The notes under the pieces: model-generated | What the model was told of the DNA's origin: nothing | What the model saw: the letters and a program-made list of their open reading frames with translations, nothing else | Database searches by the model: none | Position numbers and translations under genes: made by a program | Source: Cyanophyceae cyanobacterium | Lineage (GTDB): Bacteria > Cyanobacteriota > Cyanobacteriia > Cyanobacteriales > JBHJGN01 | Reading direction: 5' to 3' | Length of the DNA: 60,741 bases | Assembly (NCBI GenBank): GCA_050331735.1 | Contig: JBHJGN010000071.1 | Span: forward strand, 1-60,741 | Part shown: positions 43,461 to 55,997 of the stretch, in pieces | Numbering within the stretch: position 1 is the stretch's first letter | How the letters are laid out: each line of letters starts with the position of its first letter

Positions 43461-44348
43461 CTACTGAAGCAGCTCAGCTTCTTGCTGGTAATTCAGCAGC
43501 CGCTCTAACTCGCTCAACTGCTCAGAATAGAACTGAATGCTGCTCGGGCCAGAGCTGATTTCTGTAGCAGGAGAGATAAAAGTTGTCGGTTCTGCCAACT
43601 GGTGTTGGGAAAAGCCGACCGTTCTGATAAAGGGATCTTTAGCAACCGTTTCTAGACCAACCGAACGCAGCAGCTCTACCCACTGATCTGCTATTGCTTT
43701 ATCAGACTGCAAGCTTTTTGCTTGAGCAAGAGTTGCCAAGGCTTCGTGCCAAATATTAGCCTCTTGATAAAACGCCGCTTGTTCTAAGGGGCTTAATCGG
43801 CTTAATCGGCTAATTGCCACTTGCTCAAGCTCAACACGCCGAATAATTCCCTCAACGACAACATCTTCGGCGCGGTTATCCGGATTACAGATGATGGACA
43901 GATACCAGTGGTAGTCCCGATTAACTTTCAGCGGCTGTGCTGTGCTGGCTATTTTAACGCTGATAATTCCCTGTTTCCCAGAAGCCGAGAAGATTGTATC
44001 GTAAACGAGCTGGTCTTCCTGGTTGCGCAGAACAAACTCTACTGTCTGCTGCTGGTCGGCGCGAGGCAGGCGTAAAAACAAGGTCGGAGAAGGAGAGGTC
44101 GTCAGGCTCACAGATTCGTTGGGAATGAGAGCCACAAGAGAATTTTGACTGATGCAGGTTTCTCGTCTCGTGCCGCCGCCGGCTCTACGCGAAGGAAGCG
44201 GAATCGGCTCCTCCGGTTCGGCCACAGTTTTTCTGCTCTGGTAGGTGCTGGCTAAGGCTACTGGTGCAGGGCAAACTGAAAACACGGTCAGTAGCGAAGC
44301 AATACAGATAATCGGTAAAGCTTTACCAAAGTGCGATCGCTCTAACAC
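43461..44348 (-). CDS. DUF928 domain secreted protein
   Basis: Signal peptide (ALA); RRAGGGTR..C, LVALIP, TTSPSPTL, YHWYLSIIC, GIIRRV, IWHEAL, WVELLRSVGL. Confidence 0.9.
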   Translation of the reverse strand: MLERSHFGKALPIICIASLLTVFSVCPAPVALASTYQSRKTVAEPEEPIPLPSRRAGGGTRRETCISQNSLVALIPNESVSLTTSPSPTLFLRLPRADQQQTVEFVLRNQEDQLVYDTIFSASGKQGIISVKIASTAQPLKVNRDYHWYLSIICNPDNRAEDVVVEGIIRRVELEQVAISRLSRLSPLEQAAFYQEANIWHEALATLAQAKSLQSDKAIADQWVELLRSVGLETVAKDPFIRTVGFSQHQLAEPTTFISPATEISSGPSSIQFYSEQLSELERLLNYQQEAELLQ

Positions 44349-44612: not shown

Positions 44613-47132
44613 ATGATGAAGCTTCTCCACACGGTTCGTTTGCTGTTCTTCAAGACAAAAGCTCGCCCAGGATTTTTTGGGTCAGCTTCCGGGTCTCTGG
44701 TGCTGCTCGCTAGCGTCCTCGTTACGGGAACAGTGCTGGCCGCTAAGTCCTTAAGCTGGTTTCAGTTGCCTGAGCTAGTCGCCTACGACAGCATGATTCG
44801 TCTTCGGCCAGAAGCTCCCCTCGATTCTCGTTTGCTCATTGTCGGAATCACTGAGGCAGATATTCAAAACCAAAAGAGCTGGCCTCTCTCCGATGAAGTC
44901 GTTGCTCAACTGCTCGAGAAACTCCAAAGGCATCAGCCACGGGTGATTGGTTTAGATTTATACCGCGATATTCCCCATCCGCCAGGAACAGCCTCTCTGC
45001 GGCAGCAGCTTCAGGCCGACAACGTTGTTGCTATTTATGAAATTGGCAACAACACTGGCGTCAAGCCTCCCCCGGGAGTTCCCGAGGAGCGTCTTGGCTT
45101 TAACGATTTACTGCTGGATGCCGACAATGTGCTGCGCCGGAATCTTCTCTATGCCGAGTCCGCCTCTGGGGCCCGAAAAATTTACTCGTTTGCTCTTCAG
45201 GTCAGCCTCCACTATTTAGGCGATCGCGCGGCACTCTTTGCGGCCTATCCAGACTTTCTCCAAATTGGTCAGACCGTCTTCCCGACTCTCAAGCCCAATT
45301 CCGGCGGCTATCAGATGGTTCCGCTCGAAGCTCAAGGCTGGCAAACCTTGCGAATCTACCGCTCTCGAGAAATAGCGCCCCAAATTTCTCTTACCCAGGC
45401 TTTGACCGAAGAGTTAGATCCGAACCTGATTCGGGGTAAAGCGGTGCTGATTGGCACTACGGCTCCGAGTGAAAAAGATATTTTTTTGAGTCCCTACAGC
45501 GCTACTTTAACTGGCATGTTGCGAGTGCCGGGGGTAGAAGCCCATGCTCGTACCGTTAGCCAAATCCTCGGTGCTGTCCTCGATGATTCTTCTCAGTTCT
45601 GGTTTTGGCCAGAAACGAGCGAGGGGCTGTGGATCTGGGCCTGGTCTCTAGGAGGCGGCGTTTTAGTCTGGCGCATCCACCGTCCGCTCCTATTGGGAGT
45701 CAGCTTAGCGACGGCGGTCCTGCTCCTGTGGGGACTCTGCTTCGGGCTATTTCTCGGCTCGGGATGGGTGCCGTTTGCTGCCCCAGCCATTGCTTTAGTC
45801 GCCACTGGCGGCAGTGTCTTAGCCTACAAGTTTTTCTACAGTTTTTCCTACGATTCTCTCACGGGTCTGGCCAATCGCGGTCGCTTCATCAAACAGCTAC
45901 GACAAGAACGCCACAGACACCAACCGATCGCCGTAATCGTGGTGACGCTCAACCGTTTCAAGGTAATCAACGATAGTCTCGGACACCAGGCTGGAGATCA
46001 GCTTCTGATCGTGGCGGCTAATCGTCTGAGAACTTGCTTGCCCGGTAAATCTCAACTCGCGAGAGTCGGCAATCATGAGTTTGCTCTCTGTCTAAACGAT
46101 ATTGCTGAAATTGAAGCAGCGATCGCCGTTGCCAACTGTATCCAACAGAAGTTACAGGCTCCTTTCCGGTTAAACGAGCAAGATATCTACACCAGTACGA
46201 GCTTGGGGATTGCCTATCGCTACCCACAGAGTAGCGGCAAATTGGAAGACCTGCTGCAAAACGCTCATATTGCCATGTATCGAGCCAAAGCGCTCGGTAA
46301 ACAGCGGCCAGAAGTCTTTATTGCCAGAATGCACGACCAGACGCTCAAGCGCTGGCAGCTCGAAACGGATTTGCGTCAGGCGTTGGAGCACCATGAGTTC
46401 GAGCTTTATTATCAGCCAATTGTGTTACTGGAGACGGGAAAACTGGCGGGTTTTGAAGCGTTGATTCGCTGGCGATCGCCTGAACGTGGCTTTGTCGTTC
46501 CCAGTGAATTCATTCCCATCGCTGAAGAAACGGGCTTAATCATTCCTATCGGTCAGCGCGTACTGCGAGCAGCCTGCCTGCAAATGAAGCGCTGGCACGA
46601 GCAGTTTCCCCATAACGCATCGCTGACGATTAGCGTGAATCTCTCCCCACGGCAGTTTGCTCAGCCAGAACTGCTCCGGCAGGTTCAGCAAACCATTGCA
46701 GACGTGGGACTGGATTCGCGGTGCCTGAAGCTGGAGATTACCGAGAGCATGGTGACAGAAGATTTGGAAGGGGCGATCGCTCTTCTCCAGCAGCTCAAGG
46801 CTCTCAACCTGAAGCTGAGTATCGATGATTTTGGCACGGGCTATTCTTCGTTGAGTACGCTGCACCGCTTTCCCATTGATACCCTCAAGATCGATAAATC
46901 CTTTGTCTGTCGTCTGGAGGAAAGCTCCCAGTATGCCGAGATTGTTAAAACCATTGTGGTTTTAGGACACAATTTGGGGTTAGAAATTATTGCAGAAGGC
47001 ATTGAGACAGCCGCTCAGATGCAGATGCTTCGAGCTTTAGGCTGCGAGTACGGACAGGGCTACCTGTTTGCCAAACCGCTCTCGAAAGAAGCCGTTGCTA
47101 AGCTGATTGCGCAAGAGCCGCAGTGGCGATAG
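44613..47132 (+). CDS. CHASE2-GGDEF(degenerate)-EAL membrane receptor, predicted c-di-GMP phosphodiesterase
   Basis: CHASE2 motifs (DSRLLIVGITEADI, PRVIGLDLYRD, GKAVLIG, PGVEAHA), three TM helices, GNHEF in place of GGDEF, EALIRW and DDFGTGYSS. Confidence 0.93.
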   Translation: MMKLLHTVRLLFFKTKARPGFFGSASGSLVLLASVLVTGTVLAAKSLSWFQLPELVAYDSMIRLRPEAPLDSRLLIVGITEADIQNQKSWPLSDEVVAQLLEKLQRHQPRVIGLDLYRDIPHPPGTASLRQQLQADNVVAIYEIGNNTGVKPPPGVPEERLGFNDLLLDADNVLRRNLLYAESASGARKIYSFALQVSLHYLGDRAALFAAYPDFLQIGQTVFPTLKPNSGGYQMVPLEAQGWQTLRIYRSREIAPQISLTQALTEELDPNLIRGKAVLIGTTAPSEKDIFLSPYSATLTGMLRVPGVEAHARTVSQILGAVLDDSSQFWFWPETSEGLWIWAWSLGGGVLVWRIHRPLLLGVSLATAVLLLWGLCFGLFLGSGWVPFAAPAIALVATGGSVLAYKFFYSFSYDSLTGLANRGRFIKQLRQERHRHQPIAVIVVTLNRFKVINDSLGHQAGDQLLIVAANRLRTCLPGKSQLARVGNHEFALCLNDIAEIEAAIAVANCIQQKLQAPFRLNEQDIYTSTSLGIAYRYPQSSGKLEDLLQNAHIAMYRAKALGKQRPEVFIARMHDQTLKRWQLETDLRQALEHHEFELYYQPIVLLETGKLAGFEALIRWRSPERGFVVPSEFIPIAEETGLIIPIGQRVLRAACLQMKRWHEQFPHNASLTISVNLSPRQFAQPELLRQVQQTIADVGLDSRCLKLEITESMVTEDLEGAIALLQQLKALNLKLSIDDFGTGYSSLSTLHRFPIDTLKIDKSFVCRLEESSQYAEIVKTIVVLGHNLGLEIIAEGIETAAQMQMLRALGCEYGQGYLFAKPLSKEAVAKLIAQEPQWR

Positions 47133-47442
47133 GCTTTTTCTCCGGTTGCAGCAATCTACTACCAAATTTTTATCTAGAAAACAGAAAAAAAGATCAGAGT
47201 TTGCTAGGGTTTTCTACCTAGAGCATCCAAGAATTTACAGAAAAGCACAGGCGAAAGAAAATCTTTTAAAGCTAAGCTCTATAGAGCATTCTGCGTTTTT
47301 CAGAGCCAATAAGATTTGCTGAAGCGGCAAATGTGAAGATTTAGTTAAGAACAATTACTGATGTTTCTTTAGATAGAGAAAAATATATTGTTTCTTGTAA
47401 ATAACTTGAAAGAGTAACTCCAAAACTAGAGAGGCTAAAATC

Positions 47443-47616
47443 ATGAACATTAATTCTGTATTAATCGCTGTCACCCTAATTTTGATCAGCGGAGTTGGAG
47501 TCGGCACAGCTCAGGCAACTCAGATTCAAGAAGACACCGCTCAGCTATTCCAACTTGAAGACATTCAAGATACGGTAACGGCTGAAGGAAGAAGAAGAGG
47601 TGGAAAGCAACGGTAA
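47443..47616 (+). CDS. unannotated 57-aa secreted peptide
   Basis: MNINSVLIAVTLILISGVGVGTAQA|TQIQEDTAQLFQLEDIQDTVTAEGRRRGGKQR*; AGAGAGG RBS 8 nt upstream; signal peptide with AxA site; absent from the ORF track, presumably too short. Confidence 0.75.
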   Translation: MNINSVLIAVTLILISGVGVGTAQATQIQEDTAQLFQLEDIQDTVTAEGRRRGGKQR

Positions 47617-47909
47617 TTAAAGAACTGTTCTAGTTAAGTAAACCAAATACGAGCAAATTATCAGAATAAAGAAGGACTGGTAAGAGAAAAAGTGTACGCT
47701 CAAGACAAATAATTTTAGCAATTGATCGTGTTTGATGAATTGCCGCAGGTCGAGCAGTATGCTTTAGGCTTGACAAAATTTGTAGCTTCAGTAGGCAGTT
47801 GCTAGCTACTAATAGGATTTAAGCTTCTGCTAGCCGGATTCTGATAGGATTACACCAGTACATTTTCTAGCAGTTAGCGGCTAAAGCCTCTATTAACCTG
47901 CTCGATTTG

Positions 47910-50579
47910 ATGAAACAACAGTACTATACCTGGGTTGCTAGCAGTCTTGCTTACTTCTGTTTAGCAACCCCATCTGTTTATGCTAATCCAATTGAAGCTG
48001 ATGCGACTTTAGCACCTGACAACACTGTTGTTAATCATCAGGGAAACACCTTTGAAATTACAGGTGGAGTCGAAGCTGGCACTAACTTGTTTCATAGCTT
48101 TAAGCAATTTTCTGTGCCTGATGGGAGTGTTGCTCGCTTTGTTAATGACGTTTCAGCCATCGAAAATGTCATTACCCGGGTTACGGGTTCATCTCCTTCA
48201 ATAATTAACGGTCGGCTCGAAGCTGGAGGCATGGCTCCTAATTTCAACTTGTTTCTGCTCAACCCTAACGGGATTAGTTTTGGTCCAAATGCCTCCCTCG
48301 GGTTAAACGGTTCGTTTATTGCCACTACAGCGAATGCGATTCAGTTTCGTACTCAGGGATTCTTTGGCACTAATGCATCAAGCGACCCATCAGTGCTTAG
48401 GATTAATCCTTCGGCATTGCTATTTAGTCAAACCCAATCCCAACCAATCAACAGCAAGCGCTCCTCTCTCTCCTTAGCAGAGGGAAACACTCTCGGGTTC
48501 GTTGGTGGCGAGGTTTTAATAGACGCTAGCAAGCTGATAGTTCCTGGGGGCGATGTTGAATTAGGAGGACTCTCACAGCCAGGAGCAGTACAGTTAATCT
48601 GGGAAGGGAACAATTTTGACTTAGGTTTTCCTCCTGACAAGGCTACGCTAGCTGATGTCACGCTTACCAATGGAGCCGAAATTAACGTAAGGTCATCTCG
48701 CGGTGGCAATATTAACATTGCTGCCGAAGCTCTGACGATTCTAGCTGAAAGCAAGCTTTTTGCTGGAGTTGAAGAAGGCACAGGTTCTAGAAACGCTAGA
48801 TCCGGGGATGTTACGTTACAGGCTCGCTCTGTTGATATTGTCAATTCTGAATTGAGAAACAGAGTTTTGGGTAGAGGGCAAGGCGGAAGCGTCTTGATAA
48901 CAGTTGATAATTCTCTGCGGTTAGATGGCAATACACTGATTCAGAGCAATCTAGGCGATTTTGGTATTGAAGCAGCAGCAGGACAAGCAGGTAATATTAA
49001 TATTCAGGCGCGCTCACTTTCACTCCTTAACGGGGCTCAGATACAGTCCAACACTAGAGGGCGCGGTAATGCTGGGCAGATTGATATCCGTGCCCATAGG
49101 GTAAAAATTGAGGGAGAGATCGAAGATGAAGAAGTGCCGGGGGATTTTTTTCCCAGCGCAATCTTCAGCACGGTAGGGGAAGAGGCAATCGGCAGTGGGG
49201 GAAATATTGATATTAAAGCTAGCACATTAGAAATATCTGATGGAGGACAAGTGCTAGCCGATACTTTGGGTATAGGTGATGCCGGAAGTATTTCCATTCG
49301 GGCTAGTGAAGCTGTCGCTCTTTCCCAAAGTACAGAAAACAACGGTACTCTGATTGGTAGCGGTGTAGTCTCGGGCGCAGAGGGCAATGGAGGAATAATT
49401 TTTCTAGAAACGCCAGTACTCTCTCTAACAGGTGGCGCTCAAATCGGGACGAACATTTTTGGTCCTTTGAAAGATCTTCCTGGTGGAATAGCAGACCAAG
49501 GAGGTGATATTTCAATTAATGCCTCTGATTTTGTCCTCATATCTGGGTTTGGTCTACGGGGGTTTTCCAGCGGAGTCTTCACTAGTGCTGAAGAAGATAC
49601 GACGGGTACAGCAGGAAGTATCAATATTACAACAGCAAACTTTCGTATTGAAGATGGTGCATCAGTAGATGCCCGAACCGAGAATGATAGCGCTGGAGGC
49701 AATATTAAAATTAACGCGACTACGTTTGAAGCAGTTGGCGGCGGTCAAATTCAAACGAATGCTAGGGGTCGGGGTCAAGCCGGCAATATTACTGCCAATG
49801 TAACAGGCAACCTCACCATTTCTAGTAGCGAGCCTGGCTTTGAATCTCGATTAGAGAAATTTGGGGAGCAGGTAGTCACTAAGTTTGGAGCGGAGAGCGG
49901 GCTGATTACGGTAGCGGAAGAGAGTAACGGAGGCAATATTACTCTCCAAAACTTAAATCTTTTGGTGCTGCTAGATGGCGGCAGAATATTAGCTAGTGCT
50001 CTCCAAGGTCGGGGAGGAAATATCAATATTGAAGCGCAGGGAGTGTCCGTTGCTAATCCTGAAGCGCAGATTGATGCGAGTGGTGAAGTTGATGGAAATA
50101 TTAATATCGAGACTCCTAATCTTGACCCCGATCAAAGACTGGTCAAGCTAGCGGTGGAAGTGGTCGATGTCGAAAACCTGGTCGCTCAAGGATGCCAACC
50201 TGGGAAAAACTTAGGTAACAGCAGCTTTACCATTACCGGACGCGGGGCTTTAACGCCTAGCCCCATCGATACGCTTTCTCCTAATTCGGTGCTCGTTGAT
50301 TTCGGAACGGATGCTGAGCCGTCACCGAACGACCGTTTTGCTCCATCAGAAGCCGAATCGACTGCTGAACCAGCTCTCCCGCTTGCTCCCCCAGAAATTC
50401 GGGAAGCTCAGGGATGGATTCAAGAAGCAAATGGTAAAGTAGTGCTAACCGCTCAAGCACCAGCGGGAAGTTCTTATACATCTGGCCTGAGTTCAGCAAC
50501 CTGCCGTGATTTTAGCTCTCGCTCACCCTTATCTATTTCTCCGACTACTACTAGAGATAGCACTAGTCGTCCTCGTTAG
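47910..50579 (+). CDS. filamentous haemagglutinin-like TpsA exoprotein
   Basis: Signal peptide; TPS domain NLFHSFKQFSV, RVTG, NLFLLNPNGI.FGPNASL; GxAGNINI beta-helix repeats; C-terminal SSFTITGRG and EAQGW..GKVVL. Confidence 0.93.
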   Translation: MKQQYYTWVASSLAYFCLATPSVYANPIEADATLAPDNTVVNHQGNTFEITGGVEAGTNLFHSFKQFSVPDGSVARFVNDVSAIENVITRVTGSSPSIINGRLEAGGMAPNFNLFLLNPNGISFGPNASLGLNGSFIATTANAIQFRTQGFFGTNASSDPSVLRINPSALLFSQTQSQPINSKRSSLSLAEGNTLGFVGGEVLIDASKLIVPGGDVELGGLSQPGAVQLIWEGNNFDLGFPPDKATLADVTLTNGAEINVRSSRGGNINIAAEALTILAESKLFAGVEEGTGSRNARSGDVTLQARSVDIVNSELRNRVLGRGQGGSVLITVDNSLRLDGNTLIQSNLGDFGIEAAAGQAGNINIQARSLSLLNGAQIQSNTRGRGNAGQIDIRAHRVKIEGEIEDEEVPGDFFPSAIFSTVGEEAIGSGGNIDIKASTLEISDGGQVLADTLGIGDAGSISIRASEAVALSQSTENNGTLIGSGVVSGAEGNGGIIFLETPVLSLTGGAQIGTNIFGPLKDLPGGIADQGGDISINASDFVLISGFGLRGFSSGVFTSAEEDTTGTAGSINITTANFRIEDGASVDARTENDSAGGNIKINATTFEAVGGGQIQTNARGRGQAGNITANVTGNLTISSSEPGFESRLEKFGEQVVTKFGAESGLITVAEESNGGNITLQNLNLLVLLDGGRILASALQGRGGNINIEAQGVSVANPEAQIDASGEVDGNINIETPNLDPDQRLVKLAVEVVDVENLVAQGCQPGKNLGNSSFTITGRGALTPSPIDTLSPNSVLVDFGTDAEPSPNDRFAPSEAESTAEPALPLAPPEIREAQGWIQEANGKVVLTAQAPAGSSYTSGLSSATCRDFSSRSPLSISPTTTRDSTSRPR

Positions 50580-52245
50580 TATTGGCTCAATTCGTCGCCT
50601 CCCTGCTCAAACGCCCCCAGAGCTACCTCCTCGCGAAGACCTACCGCAACTGCCTCGCCCGATTCCTCCAGAGGATGAGATTCCTGAAGAATCGCCGCAG
50701 CTTCCTCCCCCCGAAGAACTCCTCCCGCCCGATTCGCCAGCTCCCTCAGATCTCCCCGCTATTCCCGGAACGATCACCGTTAATCAGTTTCAGGTCGTCG
50801 GCAGCACAATCTTTACCGACGAACAGCTAGCAGCAGCCACCGAGCCGTTTGAGGATCGCCCCCTCTCGTTTGCGGAACTGCTTCAGGCTCGCTCAGCGAT
50901 AACTCAGCTCTACGTTAATAACGGCTACGTCACCTCAGGCGCAATCATTCCGCCCCAAGAAATCGCAGAGGGTACCGTCAGAATTGACGTCGTGGAAGGG
51001 GCTTTGGCCGAAACCAACGTGGACATTGAAGGAAGACTCGACCCAGACTATATCAGCGATCGCCTGGCGCTGGCCACTCAAGTGCCCTTAAACGTGCCTC
51101 GCCTGGTAGAAGCGCTTCAGTTACTTCAGCTTAACCCTCTGGTGGAGAGAATTTCAGCAGAACTCTCGGCGGGGGTTCGACCGGGAACCAGTGTCTTGGA
51201 TGTGGAAGTAGAAATTGCCGATACCTTTAGTACCCAAATCGCTTTAGATAACGGTCGTTCTCCCAGCGTTGGCAGCTTTCGCCGCCAGGTGGAGCTCACC
51301 GAAGCCAATTTGCTCGGCTTAGGAGATAATTTTAGAGCCACCTACCGCAATACCGACGGCAGCAACGACTTTGACGTAGCCTACACGATCCCCGTTAATG
51401 CCCGCAACGGCACGTTTGCCCTCAGCTATCGCAAGGTGGGCAGTGAAGTCGTAGAAGAGCCCTTCGATTTTCTTAATATCGAATCAGAGTTCGACCGCTA
51501 CGAACTCACGCTCCGTCAACCCGTCATCCAGAAACCCACACAGGAGCTAACCCTTGGCCTGAGCGCCGAGCGGACTGCCAGCGTCGTGACCTTTTTAGAC
51601 GAAGAAGTGGGGTTTCCCGAATCAGGAGAAGGAATTACGCGACTAACGACCCTGCGCTTCTTTCAGGAATGGCTCCAGCGCGGTCAACAGCAGGTGTTTG
51701 CTGCGCGATCACAGTTTAGCGTTGGGTTGGATGCCCTCGATGCGACCACCAGCGATGAAGCTCCCGACGGGCGCTATTTTGCCTGGCGCGGACAGGCTCA
51801 ATGGGTCAGGCAGCTAGCAGCAGATACGTTAGTGTTAGTCCGCAGCGACTTACAGTTAACCGACGACAACTTAGTAGCGCTCGAACAGTTCGGCTTGGGA
51901 GGCATTGGCAGCGTGAGAGGGTATCGCCAGGATGCTCTGTTAGAAAATAACGGTGTTCTCGCTTCGGCTGAGGTGCGTCTTCCCATCCTGCGGGTTCCCT
52001 CTCAAGACATGGTGCTACAGGTAGTTCCCTTTGTCGATTTTGGAACCGTCTGGGGTCGGTCTGATGACGAATTTAGCCCAGATACGGATACCCTGGCGGC
52101 GATCGGCATTGGCCTCAACTACGAGCTTGGAGAAACGTTTAGTGCCCGTTTAGATTGGGGCATTCCTCTAGTTGAGCTAGAGGCTAACGGCGATACATTG
52201 CAAGAAAACGGGATTTACTTTTCAATTATCTATACACCTTTCTAA
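50506..52245 (+). CDS. ShlB/FhaC/HecB-family TpsB outer-membrane transporter
   Basis: POTRA (ITQLYVNNGYVTSGA), DNGRSPSVG, GGIGSVRGY, C-terminal Phe; start uncertain because of a 74-nt overlap with tpsA. Confidence 0.93.
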   Translation: MILALAHPYLFLRLLLEIALVVLVSIGSIRRLPAQTPPELPPREDLPQLPRPIPPEDEIPEESPQLPPPEELLPPDSPAPSDLPAIPGTITVNQFQVVGSTIFTDEQLAAATEPFEDRPLSFAELLQARSAITQLYVNNGYVTSGAIIPPQEIAEGTVRIDVVEGALAETNVDIEGRLDPDYISDRLALATQVPLNVPRLVEALQLLQLNPLVERISAELSAGVRPGTSVLDVEVEIADTFSTQIALDNGRSPSVGSFRRQVELTEANLLGLGDNFRATYRNTDGSNDFDVAYTIPVNARNGTFALSYRKVGSEVVEEPFDFLNIESEFDRYELTLRQPVIQKPTQELTLGLSAERTASVVTFLDEEVGFPESGEGITRLTTLRFFQEWLQRGQQQVFAARSQFSVGLDALDATTSDEAPDGRYFAWRGQAQWVRQLAADTLVLVRSDLQLTDDNLVALEQFGLGGIGSVRGYRQDALLENNGVLASAEVRLPILRVPSQDMVLQVVPFVDFGTVWGRSDDEFSPDTDTLAAIGIGLNYELGETFSARLDWGIPLVELEANGDTLQENGIYFSIIYTPF

Positions 52246-52497
52246 ACCGGAAATTTCAGTAGATTTACGGAGTATAGAAGAGCAGGATTGATTGTAGCAT
52301 TGATCCGTTCAATTCTGAGGAGACAACACGATTGAAGCTGCCAACGAAGGGATAAAGTGCCGCTAGCGGGAGTGAGGGAGCTATCCTACACGAGGAAAAC
52401 CTAGGGAGTTGCTAATGGCCTTTCTCCTGCCTTTGCGATCGCTCGGCGACTAATCCCTCTTTTATTCAGATTGCCTTGGGCAAAACATCTAAGCCTC

Positions 52498-55026
52498 ATG
52501 TTTTTTCGTCATTTATTCAAGCTCGCTTTGTTAGCGATACTGGGCTTGGCGATTAGCTTAACGTCAGTGATTGGCTCTAACAGTTGGGCCGGACAACCAG
52601 TCGAGCAGCAGGGACTCGAACTCTATCAAAATGCCCAGTTTCAAGAAGCCGCTCAGTTTTGGCAGCAGGCCATTCAAGAATATCAAACCACCGGCAACCG
52701 CTTCGGCCAGGCCAGAGTTTTGAGTAATTTATCTCTGGCCTATCAGCAGTTAGGGCAATGGCAGCAGGCACAAACCGCCGTCAGGCAAGGCCTAGAGCTG
52801 CTGCAATCAGCGGTGAGGGATTCTGATTCTTTGGCCTTTACCAGAACCATGGCCCAGGCCCTCAATACCCTGGGAAAATTGCAGTTAGCTCTAGGTCAGG
52901 CCGAGACAGCGCTGAATACCTGGCAGCAAGCAGCAGACTACTACGCTCAAGCTAATAACGTCACCGGGGTAGTGCAAAGCCAGCTCAATCAGGCGGAGGC
53001 ATTACAGCGACTCGGACTCTATCGCCGCGCTTTCAAGCAGCTTCTGGAGGTAGAGCCGCAGCTCGAGACTCAGCCACCAACGGTTAGGGCAGTCGGGCTC
53101 AGAAGCCTGGGAGATCTGCTGCGGCTTACTGGCAACGTGGAGCGATCACGTCAGGTGTTAGAGGACAGTTTAGCCGTGAAAGGGATCGACCCCAATGAAA
53201 GGGCTGCTACTCTCCTCAGCTTAGGCAATACCGTTCGCGCTCAAGCTGATGTCCAAGAAGCTCTTGACACCTATCAACAGGCAGCCAATCGAGCCACTAC
53301 CCCCAGTCTCCGCGCCACTGTTCGTCTCAGCCAGTTTAGCCTGCTGTTGGATTTAGAGCGGTGGCAAGCGGCGGCGGCGCTCTGGCCTCAGATTGGCTCA
53401 GAAATTGCTCAGCTTCCCCTCAGTCATGCATCGATCCATGCCCGGATCCATTTTGCCCATAGCTTAACCCGCCTGAAAGCAGGATTAACGACGGCGGATG
53501 GTCCCTCTTGGCAGTCGATTACTCAATACCTAACGGACTCTGTTCAACAGGCTAGGGCCCTCGATGACGCGAGAGATTTATCTTACGCTCAAGGCTTCCT
53601 CGGTGAAGTTTATGCCCAGACCGAGCGGTGGGAGGAAGCGCAGGAATGGCTAGAAAAAGCTCTATTGTTAGCCCAGGCGGCGCGAGCGCCGGATGTTGTT
53701 TACCGCTGGCAGTGGCAACTGGGTAAAGTGCTCAACGCTCAAGGACAACGGCTCCAGGCGATCGCTGCCTATCAAGAAGCGGTGAACACCCTCGACTCGC
53801 TGCGCAGCGATTTAGCCGCCGTTGACCTCAATCTCCAGTTTTCTTTTCAAGAGAGCATTGAGCCTATCTATCGCGAGCTGGTCAGCTTACTGCTCCAGCC
53901 AGAGGCCGATGAAATCCCTCAGCAGAATCTAGCACAAGCCCGCGACGTGATTGAATCGTTTCGCGTTGTTGAACTCGATAATTTTTTGCGCCAAGCCTGT
54001 GTAACGGCTGAGCCAGTCGAGATTGAGCAACTCGATCCCCAGGCAGCAGTTATCTATCCGATTATTTTGAGCGATCGCCTAGAAATCATCGTTTCTTTCC
54101 CCGATCTTCCCCTGCGTCACTATACCAGCTCGGTCTCAGCAGCCCAACTCGAAGCGGTCATTGAGGAGCTGCGAGTTGGGCTTGTGATTCGCAGCCGACG
54201 ACTATTTTATGCTCCAGCGCAGCAGCTCTACGATTGGCTGCTGCGACCGATGGCGGCAGATTTAGCTAACAGTGACGTCAACACTCTGGTCTTTGTTTTG
54301 GATGGCTCTCTGCGCAACGTCCCAATGGCGACTCTACACGACGGCGAACACTACCTCCTCGAACAGTACAGCTTGGCCCTCAGTCCAGGGCTGCGACTGT
54401 TGCCGCCCACGACTCTAGAACCAACGGCCATCAAAACGTTAATGGCCGGAGTTTCTGAGGCCAGTCAAGGCTTTTCTTCTCTTAACCATGTTGTTCTCGA
54501 GCTCCAGGAGATTGCAGAAACAGCGACTAAAAGCGTTGTCTTACTCAACGAAGAATTCACCGAAGACGCCCTCAGCAATCAAGTGAGGTTTTCCGAGCTG
54601 CCCATTGTTCACATTGCCACTCACGGACAGTTCAGCTCTAGTTTACAAGAGACTTATATCTTAGCCTGGGACAGCCGCATCAACATCCGCGAGTTAAACG
54701 AGCTGCTTCAGACGAGAACCGCCACTGACGCGATTGAACTGCTTGTCCTCAGTGCCTGCGAGACGGCGATTGGAGATAAACGAGCCGCTCTTGGTTTAGC
54801 AGGAGTTGCTGTTCAGGCGGGAACCAGAAGTACCGCCGCTACCCTGTGGGCTGTGAATGATGAAGCTACGGCCCTCCTCATGGGTCAGTTTTACGAGGAA
54901 TTGACCAATCAGCAGACTACCAAAGCAGAAGCGTTAAGACAAGCGCAGCTCAAGCTGCTGCAAAATCGCTGGTACAGACACCCGTTTTACTGGGCTCCCT
55001 ATGTTCTCATTGGGAATTGGCTGTAG
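52498..55026 (+). CDS. exported TPR-CHAT domain protease (caspase/HetF-like clan)
   Basis: Signal peptide, TPR repeats, catalytic HIATHG and LVLSAC, LWAVND, HPFYWAPYVLIGNWL. Confidence 0.95.
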   Translation: MFFRHLFKLALLAILGLAISLTSVIGSNSWAGQPVEQQGLELYQNAQFQEAAQFWQQAIQEYQTTGNRFGQARVLSNLSLAYQQLGQWQQAQTAVRQGLELLQSAVRDSDSLAFTRTMAQALNTLGKLQLALGQAETALNTWQQAADYYAQANNVTGVVQSQLNQAEALQRLGLYRRAFKQLLEVEPQLETQPPTVRAVGLRSLGDLLRLTGNVERSRQVLEDSLAVKGIDPNERAATLLSLGNTVRAQADVQEALDTYQQAANRATTPSLRATVRLSQFSLLLDLERWQAAAALWPQIGSEIAQLPLSHASIHARIHFAHSLTRLKAGLTTADGPSWQSITQYLTDSVQQARALDDARDLSYAQGFLGEVYAQTERWEEAQEWLEKALLLAQAARAPDVVYRWQWQLGKVLNAQGQRLQAIAAYQEAVNTLDSLRSDLAAVDLNLQFSFQESIEPIYRELVSLLLQPEADEIPQQNLAQARDVIESFRVVELDNFLRQACVTAEPVEIEQLDPQAAVIYPIILSDRLEIIVSFPDLPLRHYTSSVSAAQLEAVIEELRVGLVIRSRRLFYAPAQQLYDWLLRPMAADLANSDVNTLVFVLDGSLRNVPMATLHDGEHYLLEQYSLALSPGLRLLPPTTLEPTAIKTLMAGVSEASQGFSSLNHVVLELQEIAETATKSVVLLNEEFTEDALSNQVRFSELPIVHIATHGQFSSSLQETYILAWDSRINIRELNELLQTRTATDAIELLVLSACETAIGDKRAALGLAGVAVQAGTRSTAATLWAVNDEATALLMGQFYEELTNQQTTKAEALRQAQLKLLQNRWYRHPFYWAPYVLIGNWL

Positions 55027-55796: not shown

Positions 55797-55925
55797 ATAC
55801 CATTTACCGAAAGTAGTCAGATAGTTCCCAAACGAACCAAGAATTGGAGGTTCAAGGGCAAAGAGCTGCTGTGCTTCCCTTTCCCCCAACTCATCAAGTC
55901 TCCTATTACTTTTTCTAATTGGTAT
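55797..55925 (+). mobile_element. MITE-like element family A, copy 2
   Basis: Near-identical to 3147-3283 with one fewer TTTCCCC unit. Confidence 0.85.
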
Positions 55926-55997
55926 AACTCACTCAGGACTGACAAGCGACAACTGGTCACTGCTATAACTGGTAACTGATACAACTGGTAACTGGAA

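What the first reader, a model, noticed from the sequence alone, without database searches (positions are those of the whole stretch)
47443..47616. Unannotated secreted micropeptide sharing an RRxGGxxR motif with the neighbouring DUF928
Seen: a 57-aa ORF with RBS, signal peptide (AQA), acidic spacer and basic C-terminus EGRRRGGKQR. DUF928 residues 53-61 (R54-R61 at 44189-44166) read SRRAGGGTR, so both fit R-R-x-G-G-x-x-R. Known: the layout (signal peptide, spacer, terminal Arg/Gly motif) recalls PatX-type precursors, although RGSGR is absent, and several clan-CD proteases cut after Arg. Inference: the peptide is a substrate, decoy/inhibitor or signal precursor for the CHAT/CHASE2 module, mimicking the DUF928 N-terminal motif.
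Basis: partly seen in the sequence, partly recalled or inferred. Interest (0 to 1): 0.85.

Follow-up and report, generated by a model that had tools for sequence, protein, structure and literature searches.

The report
Secreted mini-peptide opening a TpsA operon
The 57-codon reading frame is very probably a real gene for a small exported peptide that belongs to an undescribed cyanobacterial family always encoded just in front of a two-partner-secretion gene, but the arginine/glycine motif it shares with the neighbouring DUF928 protein looks like coincidence.

Summary
The ORF (47443-47616, +) exists as described. Its length alone is not unusual for the gap, but its codon usage is gene-like. It is also the positional counterpart of small signal-peptide ORFs found in all 7 of 7 loci with the same gene order (CHASE2-GGDEF-EAL > peptide > TpsA). 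A profile of the six relatives ranks it first of 47,674 ORFs in its own genome.

The family is unnamed: 65 clusters in a 5.8-billion-protein set, all "hypothetical". Members lie 78-515 nt upstream of a TPS-domain gene (12 of 13 further hits). They have a Sec-type signal peptide, a polar linker and a hypervariable C-terminal loop between two cysteines (62 of 64 relatives).

The window's peptide is an odd member. It has no cysteine and ends GRRRGGKQR. None of the 64 relatives carries RRxGGxxR.

Against a profile of the conserved DUF928 motif (G-x-P-G-R-R-x-G-G-G-[ST]-R) the peptide ranks only 314th of 47,674. Among shuffled peptides, 14 of 300 match that region equally well.

So it is a real, exported, module-linked peptide. 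The DUF928-mimicry/CHAT-substrate reading is not supported. The gene is tied to TpsA, not to CHAT or CHASE2. Function is untested and no expression data exist.

The parts
47430..47434 (+). Shine-Dalgarno-like AGAGG, 8 nt before the ATG
   Evidence: Read directly. Relatives carry GGAG/AAGGAG at a similar distance (upstream strings printed).
47443..47616 (+). 57-aa peptide gene (P0001), including the stop codon
   Evidence: Gene-like codon usage. Rank 1 of 47,674 ORFs with the profile of six syntenic relatives, E 0.037. Rank 2 with a 17-member profile, E 0.071.
47443..47517 (+). Predicted Sec-type signal peptide, residues 1-25, ending A-Q-A
   Evidence: Hydrophobic core and small-x-small site found by my own script. 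Aligns with the signal peptides of relatives. Cleavage is inferred, not shown.
47518..47613 (+). Predicted mature peptide, residues 26-57: acidic/polar linker plus basic tail
47587..47613 (+). C-terminal tail G49-RRRGGKQ-R57. It occupies the place of the two-cysteine loop of relatives.
   Evidence: Alignment A3. No Cys in any frame just past the stop (my reading of the DNA).
47907..50579 (+). TpsA-type exoprotein (TPS domain), the constant downstream partner of the peptide family
   Evidence: Pfam TPS 2.3e-41. TPS gene downstream of 12 of 13 further hits.
50506..52245 (+). TpsB transporter (ShlB/FhaC type, POTRA_2)
52471..55026 (+). TPR-CHAT protease with a signal-peptide-like N-terminus
   Evidence: Pfam CHAT 3.5e-60. 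N-terminus printed.
44613..47132 (+). CHASE2-GGDEF-EAL membrane protein, the upstream neighbour
   Evidence: Full-length orthologues at 41-59% identity.
43461..44348 (-). DUF928 protein. Its N-terminal motif SRRAGGGTR is encoded at 44192-44166.
   Evidence: Family-wide motif shown.

Best explanation
The ORF is a real gene. It encodes a divergent, cysteine-less member of an undescribed cyanobacterial family of 47-78-aa peptides that form the first gene of TpsA (two-partner-secretion) operons.

Shown:
- Gene-like codon usage.
- The same position, strand, size and architecture as the relatives.
- Weak but top-ranked profile similarity to them.
- Constant adjacency of the family to a TPS gene.

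Inferred:
- The precursor is exported by Sec and cut after A-Q-A, releasing a 32-aa polar peptide into the periplasm. TpsA, TpsB, the CHASE2 sensor domain, DUF928 and the signal-peptide-bearing TPR-CHAT protease are all expected in that compartment.
- The peptide works together with the TpsA/TpsB pair it is encoded with.
- The C-terminal segment is the specificity-determining part. In relatives this is a hypervariable disulfide loop.
- In this genome that loop has been replaced by an Arg/Gly tail. The peptide therefore either acts without a disulfide or is losing its function.

The RR-G in the tail is more simply read as family heritage than as a copy of the DUF928 motif: relatives have C-RR-G-C, C-RR-F and C-RR-I loops at the same alignment columns.
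For: - Codon log-likelihood 0.214, in the range of true genes and reached by 0.1-2% of control ORFs.
- 7 of 7 loci with DUF928< CHASE2-GGDEF-EAL> [450-1115-nt gap] TPS>, out of 67 anchored loci examined, hold a same-strand small signal-peptide ORF in the gap.
- The profile of the six relatives, built without the window's peptide, ranks it 1st of 47,674 ORFs in G000, E 0.037. The 17-member profile ranks it 2nd, E 0.071.
- A search of 401 genomes of the order with alignment A1 gave further members. 12 of the 13 examined lie 78-515 nt upstream of a TPS-domain frame. Their upstream neighbours vary, while TPS is always next.
- By my script's criteria, a signal peptide plus two late Cys is found upstream on the same strand of 8 of 43 TPS genes. 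The figures are 1 of 43 on the opposite strand and 6 of 963 for other genes. One of the 8, own_C4, is not a profile member.
- Family size: 65 clusters at E <= 1e-3. Every name a source gives is "hypothetical" or "uncharacterized", apart from one evident misnomer.
- In one genus the first 45 codons are conserved (pN 0.02-0.07) while the loops differ completely. In the same genus TpsA is the most variable cluster protein: 65% mean column identity, against 87-91% for DUF928, CHASE2 and CHAT.
- Peptide-linked TpsA proteins cluster on a TPS-domain tree: 6 changes against a mean of 15 in shuffles, 0 of 500 shuffles as low.
Against: - No expression data: no RNA run holds the stretch.
- Sequence similarity to the family is weak (E 0.04-0.07 in a one-genome database) and lies mostly in the signal peptide, a compositionally biased region.
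- Single-sequence searches found no relative; self only; and (only a repetitive artefact).
- The defining two cysteines are missing.
- The window's TpsA sits on a long branch outside the main peptide-linked clade, so orthology of the gene pair is not shown.
- None of the other 10 TPS paralogues in G000 has such a peptide.
- pN/pS in the conserved part of relatives is only moderately below 1, and 1.05 in one pair.
- Binding to TpsA is not shown.
Confidence: 0.6

Rival explanations
1. First reader's reading. The peptide tail mimics the DUF928 N-terminal Arg motif and acts as a substrate, decoy or inhibitor of the exported CHAT protease, or of whatever recognises DUF928.
For: - The DUF928 motif is a genuine family hallmark (G-[LA]-P-G-R-R-x-G-G-G-[TS]-R-G-x-C), and RR.GG..R occurs in 26 of 80 DUF928 proteins examined.
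- The neighbouring DUF928 is the only one of the 8 paralogues in G000 with the RR.GG..R form.
- The motif sits at a similar distance from the signal peptide in both proteins.
- The TPR-CHAT protein has a signal-peptide-like N-terminus, so it could meet the peptide.
- RR.GG..R is rare genome-wide.
Against: - 0 of 64 family relatives carry the motif.
- A position weight matrix (PWM) built from 63 unique DUF928 motifs ranks the peptide 314th of 47,674 ORFs. K-Q replaces the near-invariant G-[ST], and the Pro is missing.
- 14 of 300 shuffles of the mature peptide match DUF928 residues 46-66 as well.
- The family follows TPS, not CHAT or DUF928.
- The cleavage specificity of this CHAT protease is unknown.
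Confidence: 0.1
2. The mature peptide is a diffusible signal sensed by the CHASE2 domain of the upstream GGDEF-EAL protein (an autocrine or paracrine input to c-di-GMP turnover), analogous to PatX export and processing.
For: - The peptide gene directly follows a CHASE2-GGDEF-EAL gene in 7 loci. A CHASE2 gene follows TPS in three more (L171, L172, L175).
- The CHASE2 ligand is unknown (my recall; earlier scan notes say the same).
- PatX shows that cyanobacteria export and process such precursors (PMC12756182).
- Language-model features place P0001 nearest to PatX clusters, at 0.84 and 0.83. This is below the 0.9 line and is a lead only.
Against: - G387, G333, G258 and G152 have peptide plus TPS with no CHASE2 gene in the fetched 12-16 kb.
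- 53 of 67 CHASE2-GGDEF-EAL loci pair with DUF928 (my count), but only 7 have the peptide.
- CHASE2 is well conserved where the loops are hypervariable, which fits poorly with a cognate receptor.
Confidence: 0.12
3. The gene is a decaying remnant: a former two-cysteine family member that lost both cysteines and no longer has a function.
For: - It is one of very few cysteine-less members. Of 64 relatives, 2 lack the pair: one looks truncated and one has Trp at both sites.
- It has no close relative.
- Its TpsA is divergent.
Against: - The frame is intact, with ATG and a Shine-Dalgarno-like site.
- Codon usage is slightly above the mean of true genes.
- GC is raised over the flanks.
Confidence: 0.13
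4. The ORF is a regulatory leader whose translation or export controls expression of the downstream TpsA/TpsB genes (SecM/VemP/MifM-like secretion monitor). The peptide itself is not the product that matters. The comparison with SecM/VemP/MifM is from my recall.
For: - Small ORF with a signal peptide directly upstream of secretion genes.
- C-termini of relatives are rich in W, P, G and R and stop right after the motif.
- Polybasic tail here.
- The 311-nt stretch from the ORF's 3' end to the TPS start (47600-47910) folds slightly better than shuffles, z -1.8.
Against: - The conserved feature in 62 of 64 relatives is a cysteine pair, which points to a disulfide in an exported product rather than a ribosome-arrest motif.
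- No terminator-like site and no Rfam element in the gap.
Confidence: 0.06
5. Chance ORF in an AT-rich gap.
For: 42% of shuffles give an ORF this long. No homologue by single-sequence searches.
Against: Codon usage, synteny in 7 of 7 loci and top profile rank.
Confidence: 0.03

Closest known systems
Unnamed family of 'hypothetical' small proteins upstream of cyanobacterial TPS genes (e.g. P0009 = PCC8801_3441 of Rippkaea orientalis PCC 8801; P0006, Xenococcaceae MAG; names as given by sources)
   Same: Position immediately upstream of, and co-oriented with, a TPS-domain gene. Similar length. Sec-type signal peptide of about 25 aa. Polar Q/E/T/N linker. Shine-Dalgarno site. Top-ranked profile similarity.
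   Different: Lacks the two C-terminal cysteines present in 62 of 64 relatives. Ends in GRRRGGKQR instead of a W/F/P/G/R-rich disulfide loop.
PatX (exported heterocyst-inhibitor precursor; processed by the periplasmic peptidase PatP to HRGTGR; PMC12756182, abstract and passages read)
   Same: Small precursor with a Sec signal peptide, a spacer and an Arg/Gly-rich C-terminal end. Encoded in a cyanobacterium. A periplasmic peptidase is at hand. Nearest named clusters by language-model features, 0.84 and 0.83, a lead only.
   Different: No RG(S/T)GR. No HetR match found in G000, with an uninformative control. Linked to a TPS operon, which is not reported for PatX in what I read. The PatX Pfam model was not available.
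N-terminal Arg motif of DUF928 proteins (PF06051 neighbours of CHASE2 receptors)
   Same: Shares G-R-R-x-G-G-x-x-R with the commonest form of the motif, at a similar distance behind a signal peptide.
   Different: Lacks the Pro, the third Gly, the near-invariant Ser/Thr before the last Arg and the following Cys. PWM rank 314 of 47,674. No DUF928 domain.
Secretion-monitor leader peptides SecM / VemP / MifM (recalled, not looked up here)
   Same: Small ORF with an export signal directly upstream of secretion-machinery genes.
   Different: No arrest motif has been identified. The relatives' conserved feature is a cysteine pair. No test was made.

Membership tests
TPS-upstream small exported peptide family (unnamed; alignment A3) | Lies directly upstream of, and on the same strand as, a TPS-domain (TpsA) gene | tested here: met
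   290 nt upstream of the TPS gene. Relatives: 7 of 7 syntenic loci and 12 of 13 further hits.
TPS-upstream small exported peptide family (unnamed; alignment A3) | 47-78 aa with an N-terminal Sec-type signal peptide and a polar linker | tested here: met
   57 aa. Hydrophobic core plus A-Q-A by my own heuristic, no SignalP. Alignments.
TPS-upstream small exported peptide family (unnamed; alignment A3) | Profile similarity to members | tested here: met
   Rank 1 of 47,674 ORFs, E 0.037, with a profile that excludes it. Rank 2, E 0.071, with 17 members. Weak in absolute terms.
TPS-upstream small exported peptide family (unnamed; alignment A3) | Two cysteines bounding a C-terminal loop | tested here: not met
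   No Cys in the peptide. 62 of 64 relatives have exactly two in the last 22 residues.
PatX | RG(S/T)GR pentapeptide near the C-terminus | tested here: not met
   Regex search found none in the peptide.
PatX | Sec signal peptide and export | tested here: inconclusive
   Signal-peptide-like by heuristic only. Export not testable here.
PatX | Co-occurrence with hetR | tested here: inconclusive
   PF03574 gave no match in G000, but the control genomes also gave none.
PatX | Match to Pfam PatX model PF28278 | not testable with these tools
   The model is not in the library. The Pfam copy used gave no family for P0001.
DUF928 N-terminal motif | G-x-P-G-R-R-x-G-G-G-[ST]-R followed within 1-5 residues by Cys | tested here: not met
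   Only G, RR, GG and the last R match. PWM rank 314 of 47,674. No Cys follows.
Secretion-monitor arrest peptides | Translation arrest relieved by export, controlling the downstream gene | not tested
   Needs experiments. Only a fold of 47600-47910 was made, z -1.8.

The most novel reading that the evidence does not exclude
The family is a set of hypervariable, disulfide-looped exported peptides that co-diversify with their TpsA exoprotein. Together they would form an allele-specific recognition or signalling pair at the cyanobacterial cell surface (kin discrimination or a peptide input to the CHASE2/DUF928/CHAT envelope module). In this genome the loop would have been swapped for a DUF928-like Arg motif that plugs the peptide directly into the CHAT/CHASE2 branch.
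Probability: 0.1. Interest if true: 0.8.

Novelty: new variant of a known kind. Interest (0 to 1): 0.55.

Why it matters
The CHASE2/DUF928/CHAT/two-partner-secretion gene set is widespread in cyanobacteria: DUF928 was found in 133 of 151 genomes of the order. In my searches I found no study of it:
- "DUF928": 1 paper, on WD40 proteins; only its search listing was seen.
- "CHASE2" + "CHAT domain" + "cyanobacteria": 0 papers.
- Two-partner secretion + cyanobacteria + small/signal peptide: nothing relevant among the 12 listed of 115.

What CHASE2 receptors sense is unknown (my recall). A conserved small exported peptide with a hypervariable loop, placed at the head of a subset of the TpsA operons, is a new and easily testable component. 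It can be synthesised, deleted or tagged in cultured relatives.

For this window the practical result is an annotation: a real small gene, family member, atypical tail. It is also a caution that the eye-catching shared motif is not supported.

Tried and rejected
- **Single-sequence homology searches with P0001.** 41 genomes, the 5.8-billion-protein set and 1.84 billion representatives. They returned only the peptide itself, plus P0005, a 1402-aa tandem-repeat protein whose score is a sum of weak repeats. Rejected as a relative.
- **The search for related loci with the TpsA protein in genome contigs:** no relative.
- **All-against-all clustering of 1,882 small gap ORFs from 74 loci.** 113 components, none containing the window's ORF. 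Sequence clustering alone missed the family.
- **Own-genome paralogues.** No similar ORF upstream of the other 10 TPS genes.
- **Sequencing runs.** No RNA holder listed. Contigs of the one holder, possibly the source sample, cover the stretch with no difference inside the ORF. The other two runs hold nothing.
- **Rfam on 47050-48000:** no match at E <= 1.
- **Promoter/terminator scan:** 2 promoter-like sites against 1.5 expected, 0 terminators.
- **RNA fold of 47600-47910:** z -1.8.
- **Complex prediction of TpsA residues 27-890 with peptide residues 26-57.** No verdict (scores 0.11, 0.49, 0.01; mark 0.32; controls not run). Not evidence either way.
- **Protein atlas.** All scores under 0.9, leads only.
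- **PatX Pfam model:** not in the library.
- **Frameshift or read-through hiding a cysteine loop.** My reading of the three frames around the stop in the DNA shows no cysteine pair.
- **G012 hit** (E 0.001). No cysteines, no TPS in the 732 nt available downstream and none in the 6.3-kb contig fetched. Left out as probably false.
- **Weak tail.** The 72 of 401 genomes with a match at E <= 0.05 mostly have weak matches inside long frames. I followed only those with E <= about 1e-3.

Full report
**1. The observation**

The window holds an ATG-to-TAA frame at 47443-47616 (+) encoding MNINSVLIAVTLILISGVGVGTAQATQIQEDTAQLFQLEDIQDTVTAEGRRRGGKQR. AGAGG lies 8 nt before the ATG.

Pfam assigns the neighbours as follows:

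| Coordinates | Strand | Assignment |
|---|---|---|
| 43461-44348 | - | DUF928 |
| 44613-47132 | + | CHASE2-GGDEF-EAL |
| 47907-50579 | + | TPS-domain exoprotein (TpsA) |
| 50506-52245 | + | ShlB/POTRA_2 transporter (TpsB) |
| 52471-55026 | + | TPR-CHAT |

The peptide matches no Pfam or NCBIfam model. DUF928 residues 53-61 read SRRAGGGTR at the stated coordinates. The description is therefore correct.

**2. Is it more than chance?**

Length is not. The 774-nt gap has 37.7% GC, and 836 of 2000 dinucleotide shuffles give an ORF of at least 57 aa (376 of 2000 with ATG only).

Coding character is. I built a codon log-likelihood from 2,115 long ORFs of the same genome. The frame scores 0.214 per codon. 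True 57-codon gene segments give 0.19 +/- 0.077. Only 0.1% of 11,426 small ORFs lying inside larger genes, and 2% of 1,999 small ORFs in gaps, reach that score. The frame's GC is 0.443, against 0.335 and 0.383 in the flanks, with GC1 > GC2 > GC3.

**3. Single-sequence searches say "orphan"**

- P0001 found only itself in 41 genomes of the order (best other E 0.06, inside a 754-aa frame).
- It found only itself in the 5.8-billion-protein collection.
- Among 1.84 billion representatives it found itself and P0005. P0005 is a 1402-aa tandem-repeat protein whose score is a sum of weak repeat matches.
- The genome has no relative closer than order level among those held.
- The only run holding the DNA is a stromatolite metagenome that may be its source, and no RNA holder is listed.

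**4. Synteny finds the relatives**

The genome has 8 DUF928 genes and about 11 TPS genes in many clusters. None of the other 10 TPS genes has a similar upstream ORF.

The CHASE2-GGDEF-EAL protein has full-length orthologues at 41-59% identity in many genomes of the order. I fetched 60 such loci and added six earlier loci and the window, giving 67 anchored loci.
- By my reading of the table, 53 have DUF928 directly beside the anchor.
- 7 have a TPS gene next downstream on the same strand: the window, L056, L081, L090, L110, L118 and L122.
- These seven have unusually long gaps of 450-1115 nt.
- All seven gaps hold a same-strand small ORF with a signal-peptide-like N-terminus and a polar Q/E/T/N-rich linker, mostly behind a GGAG-type Shine-Dalgarno site.

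A profile HMM of the six relatives, built without the window's peptide, was searched against all 47,674 ORFs of at least 30 aa in the six frames of G000. It ranks the window's ORF first (16.0 bits, E 0.037; next hit E 0.44). A 17-member profile ranks it second (E 0.071), with the match over residues 3-44. The similarity is weak and lies mostly in the signal peptide. Together with position, strand, size and architecture, I take it as homology.

**5. The family**

A search of 401 genomes of the order with alignment A1 gave further strong matches (E 1e-16 to 6e-4) in G387, G267, G306, G258 (two tandem copies), G152, G372, G346, G304, G333 and G097, and again G036.

- Of the 13 hits I examined, 12 lie 78-515 nt upstream of a frame with a TPS domain (E 1e-37 to 1e-43). 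The exception, G012, is weak (E 0.001), has no cysteine and had only 732 nt downstream.
- With 5-16 kb of context, the upstream neighbours differ from locus to locus, whereas TPS always follows. TPS is then followed by ShlB, or by CHASE2 > DUF928 > and a convergent CHAT, or by TPR-CHAT. G387, G333, G258 and G152 show no CHASE2, DUF928 or CHAT in the stretch fetched.
- By my script's criteria (signal-peptide-like start, at least two Cys in the last 16 residues, mature part of at most 60 aa), such ORFs lie upstream on the same strand of 8 of 43 TPS genes. The figures are 1 of 43 on the opposite strand and 6 of 963 for other genes. The loci are kin and were chosen through cluster genes, so this is descriptive. 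One of the eight (own_C4) is not a profile member.
- The 18-row alignment A3 found 65 clusters at E <= 1e-3 in the 5.8-billion set. They are 47-78 aa with no Pfam hit. Where a source gives a name it is "hypothetical" or "uncharacterized", except one evident misnomer. Sources name Crocosphaera, Rippkaea, Microcystaceae, Snowella, Aerosakkonemataceae and Xenococcaceae. Several of these are the alignment's own members.
- Of the 64 other than the window's peptide, 62 have exactly two Cys in the last 22 residues. P0049 looks truncated. P0053 has Trp at both positions. None has RR.GG..R.

**6. What varies**

In four genomes of one genus the first 45 codons are nearly identical (pN 0.02-0.07, pS 0.06-0.19), while the loops share nothing but the cysteines.

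In the same genomes TpsA is the most variable cluster protein. Its mean column identity is 0.65, with an unalignable central part and a conserved last ~270 residues. The other proteins are more conserved: 0.89 for CHASE2, 0.87 for DUF928 and 0.91 for CHAT.

On a quick maximum-likelihood tree of 53 TPS domains, the "has peptide" label needs 6 changes, against a mean of 15 in shuffles (0 of 500 as low). 17 of 18 peptide-linked rows fall in one 34-row group. The window's TpsA is the exception, on a long branch (1.36) elsewhere, where its placement is unsure.

These patterns tie the peptide to TpsA rather than to the receptor or the protease. They suggest, but do not show, that the loop and TpsA diversify together.

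**7. The shared motif**

The DUF928 N-terminal motif is real and conserved: G-[LA]-P-G-R-R-x-G-G-G-[TS]-R-G-x-C. RR.GG..R occurs in 26 of 80 DUF928 proteins from my loci. Some relatives carry two or three tandem P-x-RRK-P-G-x-SR copies. Of the 8 paralogues in G000, only the neighbour has the RR.GG..R form.

The peptide tail (E-G-R-R-R-G-G-K-Q-R) matches G, RR, GG and the final R. It lacks the Pro, the third Gly, the near-invariant Ser/Thr and the following Cys.

- A PWM from 63 unique motifs, built without G000's own sequences, ranks the peptide 314th of 47,674 ORFs. My extraction forced [ST]R at the end of the motif, which sharpens that position.
- Shuffles of the 32-aa mature peptide reach a 5-of-8 window match somewhere in the five cluster proteins in 275 of 300 cases, and within DUF928 residues 46-66 in 14 of 300.
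- The real peptide also has 5-of-8 matches to TpsA, TpsB and CHAT.

In alignment A3 the tail occupies the loop columns. Three relatives have RR right after the first Cys: C-RR-G-C in L118, C-RR-F in L172 and C-RR-I in L175. G-RRR-G-G can therefore be read as a C-RR-G-C-type loop that lost its cysteines. That is an inference from hypervariable sequence, not a reconstruction.

I conclude that the motif sharing is most likely coincidence helped by composition. It cannot be excluded that it matters in this one genome.

**8. Mechanism**

Shown: a gene-like frame, family membership by position plus weak profile similarity, and constant linkage to TpsA.

Inferred:
- Sec export and cleavage after A-Q-A.
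- A 32-aa periplasmic or extracellular peptide.
- Action together with TpsA/TpsB, with the C-terminal segment as the specificity determinant.

All likely partners are extracytoplasmic. The TPR-CHAT protein also begins with a signal-peptide-like segment.

The closest functional analogy is PatX, which is exported by Sec and cut by the periplasmic peptidase PatP to release HRGTGR (PMC12756182; abstract and passages read). The peptide is not a PatX by the defining pentapeptide. The PatX Pfam model was not available. A HetR search was negative but with an uninformative control. Atlas feature scores of 0.84 and 0.83 to PatX clusters are below the line where they count.

A structure-based test of peptide-TpsA binding gave no verdict and is not used.

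**9. What is known**

Earlier notes of this scan describe the CHASE2-DUF928-CHAT-TPS module in at least 27 genomes as conserved and unstudied. None of the eight shown mentions a peptide upstream of TPS. I saw nothing on it in the paper searches. The one CHASE2 passage in Kaur et al. 2021 (PMC8195603, passages read) concerns caspase-CHASE2 fusions, not this gene set. Supplementary files of the papers were not opened.

**10. Verdict**

- It is a real small gene, the first gene of a TpsA operon.
- It is an atypical (cysteine-less) member of an undescribed family of exported peptides.
The motif-mimicry and CHAT/CHASE2-substrate reading is not supported.
- Interest is moderate. The family, more than this odd member, is a testable new part of an enigmatic envelope module.

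Noticed in passing
window 50190-50260 (P0004 residues ~763-786) and TpsA genes of many loci: TpsA proteins of these clusters share a C-terminal motif: C-x(8-12)-F-x-[IV]-T-G-R-G-G-L-P..P, then ..EAQGW..G.V.L.A and a second conserved Cys. TGRG occurs in 34 of 53 TpsA longer than 500 aa. C763, F774, G778, A834 and C866 are invariant in 25 sequences. This could be a processing or recognition site.
   Followed up: partly
L081, L090, L110, L118 (DUF928 genes): These DUF928 proteins carry two or three tandem copies of P-x-RRK-P/G-G-x-SR before the domain, instead of the single motif.
   Followed up: no
window ~55817-55984 (-) and 12 other places in G000: A repeated element gives a 13-member cluster of small ORFs ('MMSWGKGEG/RVKGKGKHS...'), many of them beside CHASE2, CHAT or ShlB genes.
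   Followed up: no
G000 contig C67 24036-24146 (-): A 36-aa ORF with a hydrophobic start ends in RGTGRDW, which is PatS/PatX-like. No HetR match was found in the genome, though the control was uninformative.
   Followed up: no
L169 6056-6226 and 6372-6542 (+): The peptide gene is tandemly duplicated, with identical products, upstream of one TPS gene. The same protein is P0009, named by a source as PCC8801_3441 of Rippkaea orientalis PCC 8801.
   Followed up: partly
protein P0053: A family member in which both loop cysteines are replaced by Trp (...ARLWIPGIGWIYF against ...ARVCIPGLGCFQF in relatives). It is a second natural cysteine-less variant.
   Followed up: no
L031 13474-16767 (-), L058 2590-7287 (+): Single proteins match both the TPS domain and the CHAT domain. 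In some genomes the CHAT protease is therefore itself a two-partner-secretion cargo.
   Followed up: no
window 47329-47411: A 137-nt contig of run X1 (depth 17 against 46) matches with 10 differences. It then diverges into ...AACTAGAGAGGTAATCAATCA, which resembles the Shine-Dalgarno region of the peptide gene. It may be a second strain's allele.
   Followed up: no
L056 5880-5915 (- strand): A perfect hairpin (TTGACCCCTGA-AAG-TCAGGGGTCAA) lies between the peptide stop and the TPS start in the closest syntenic locus. Nothing comparable was called in the window.
   Followed up: no
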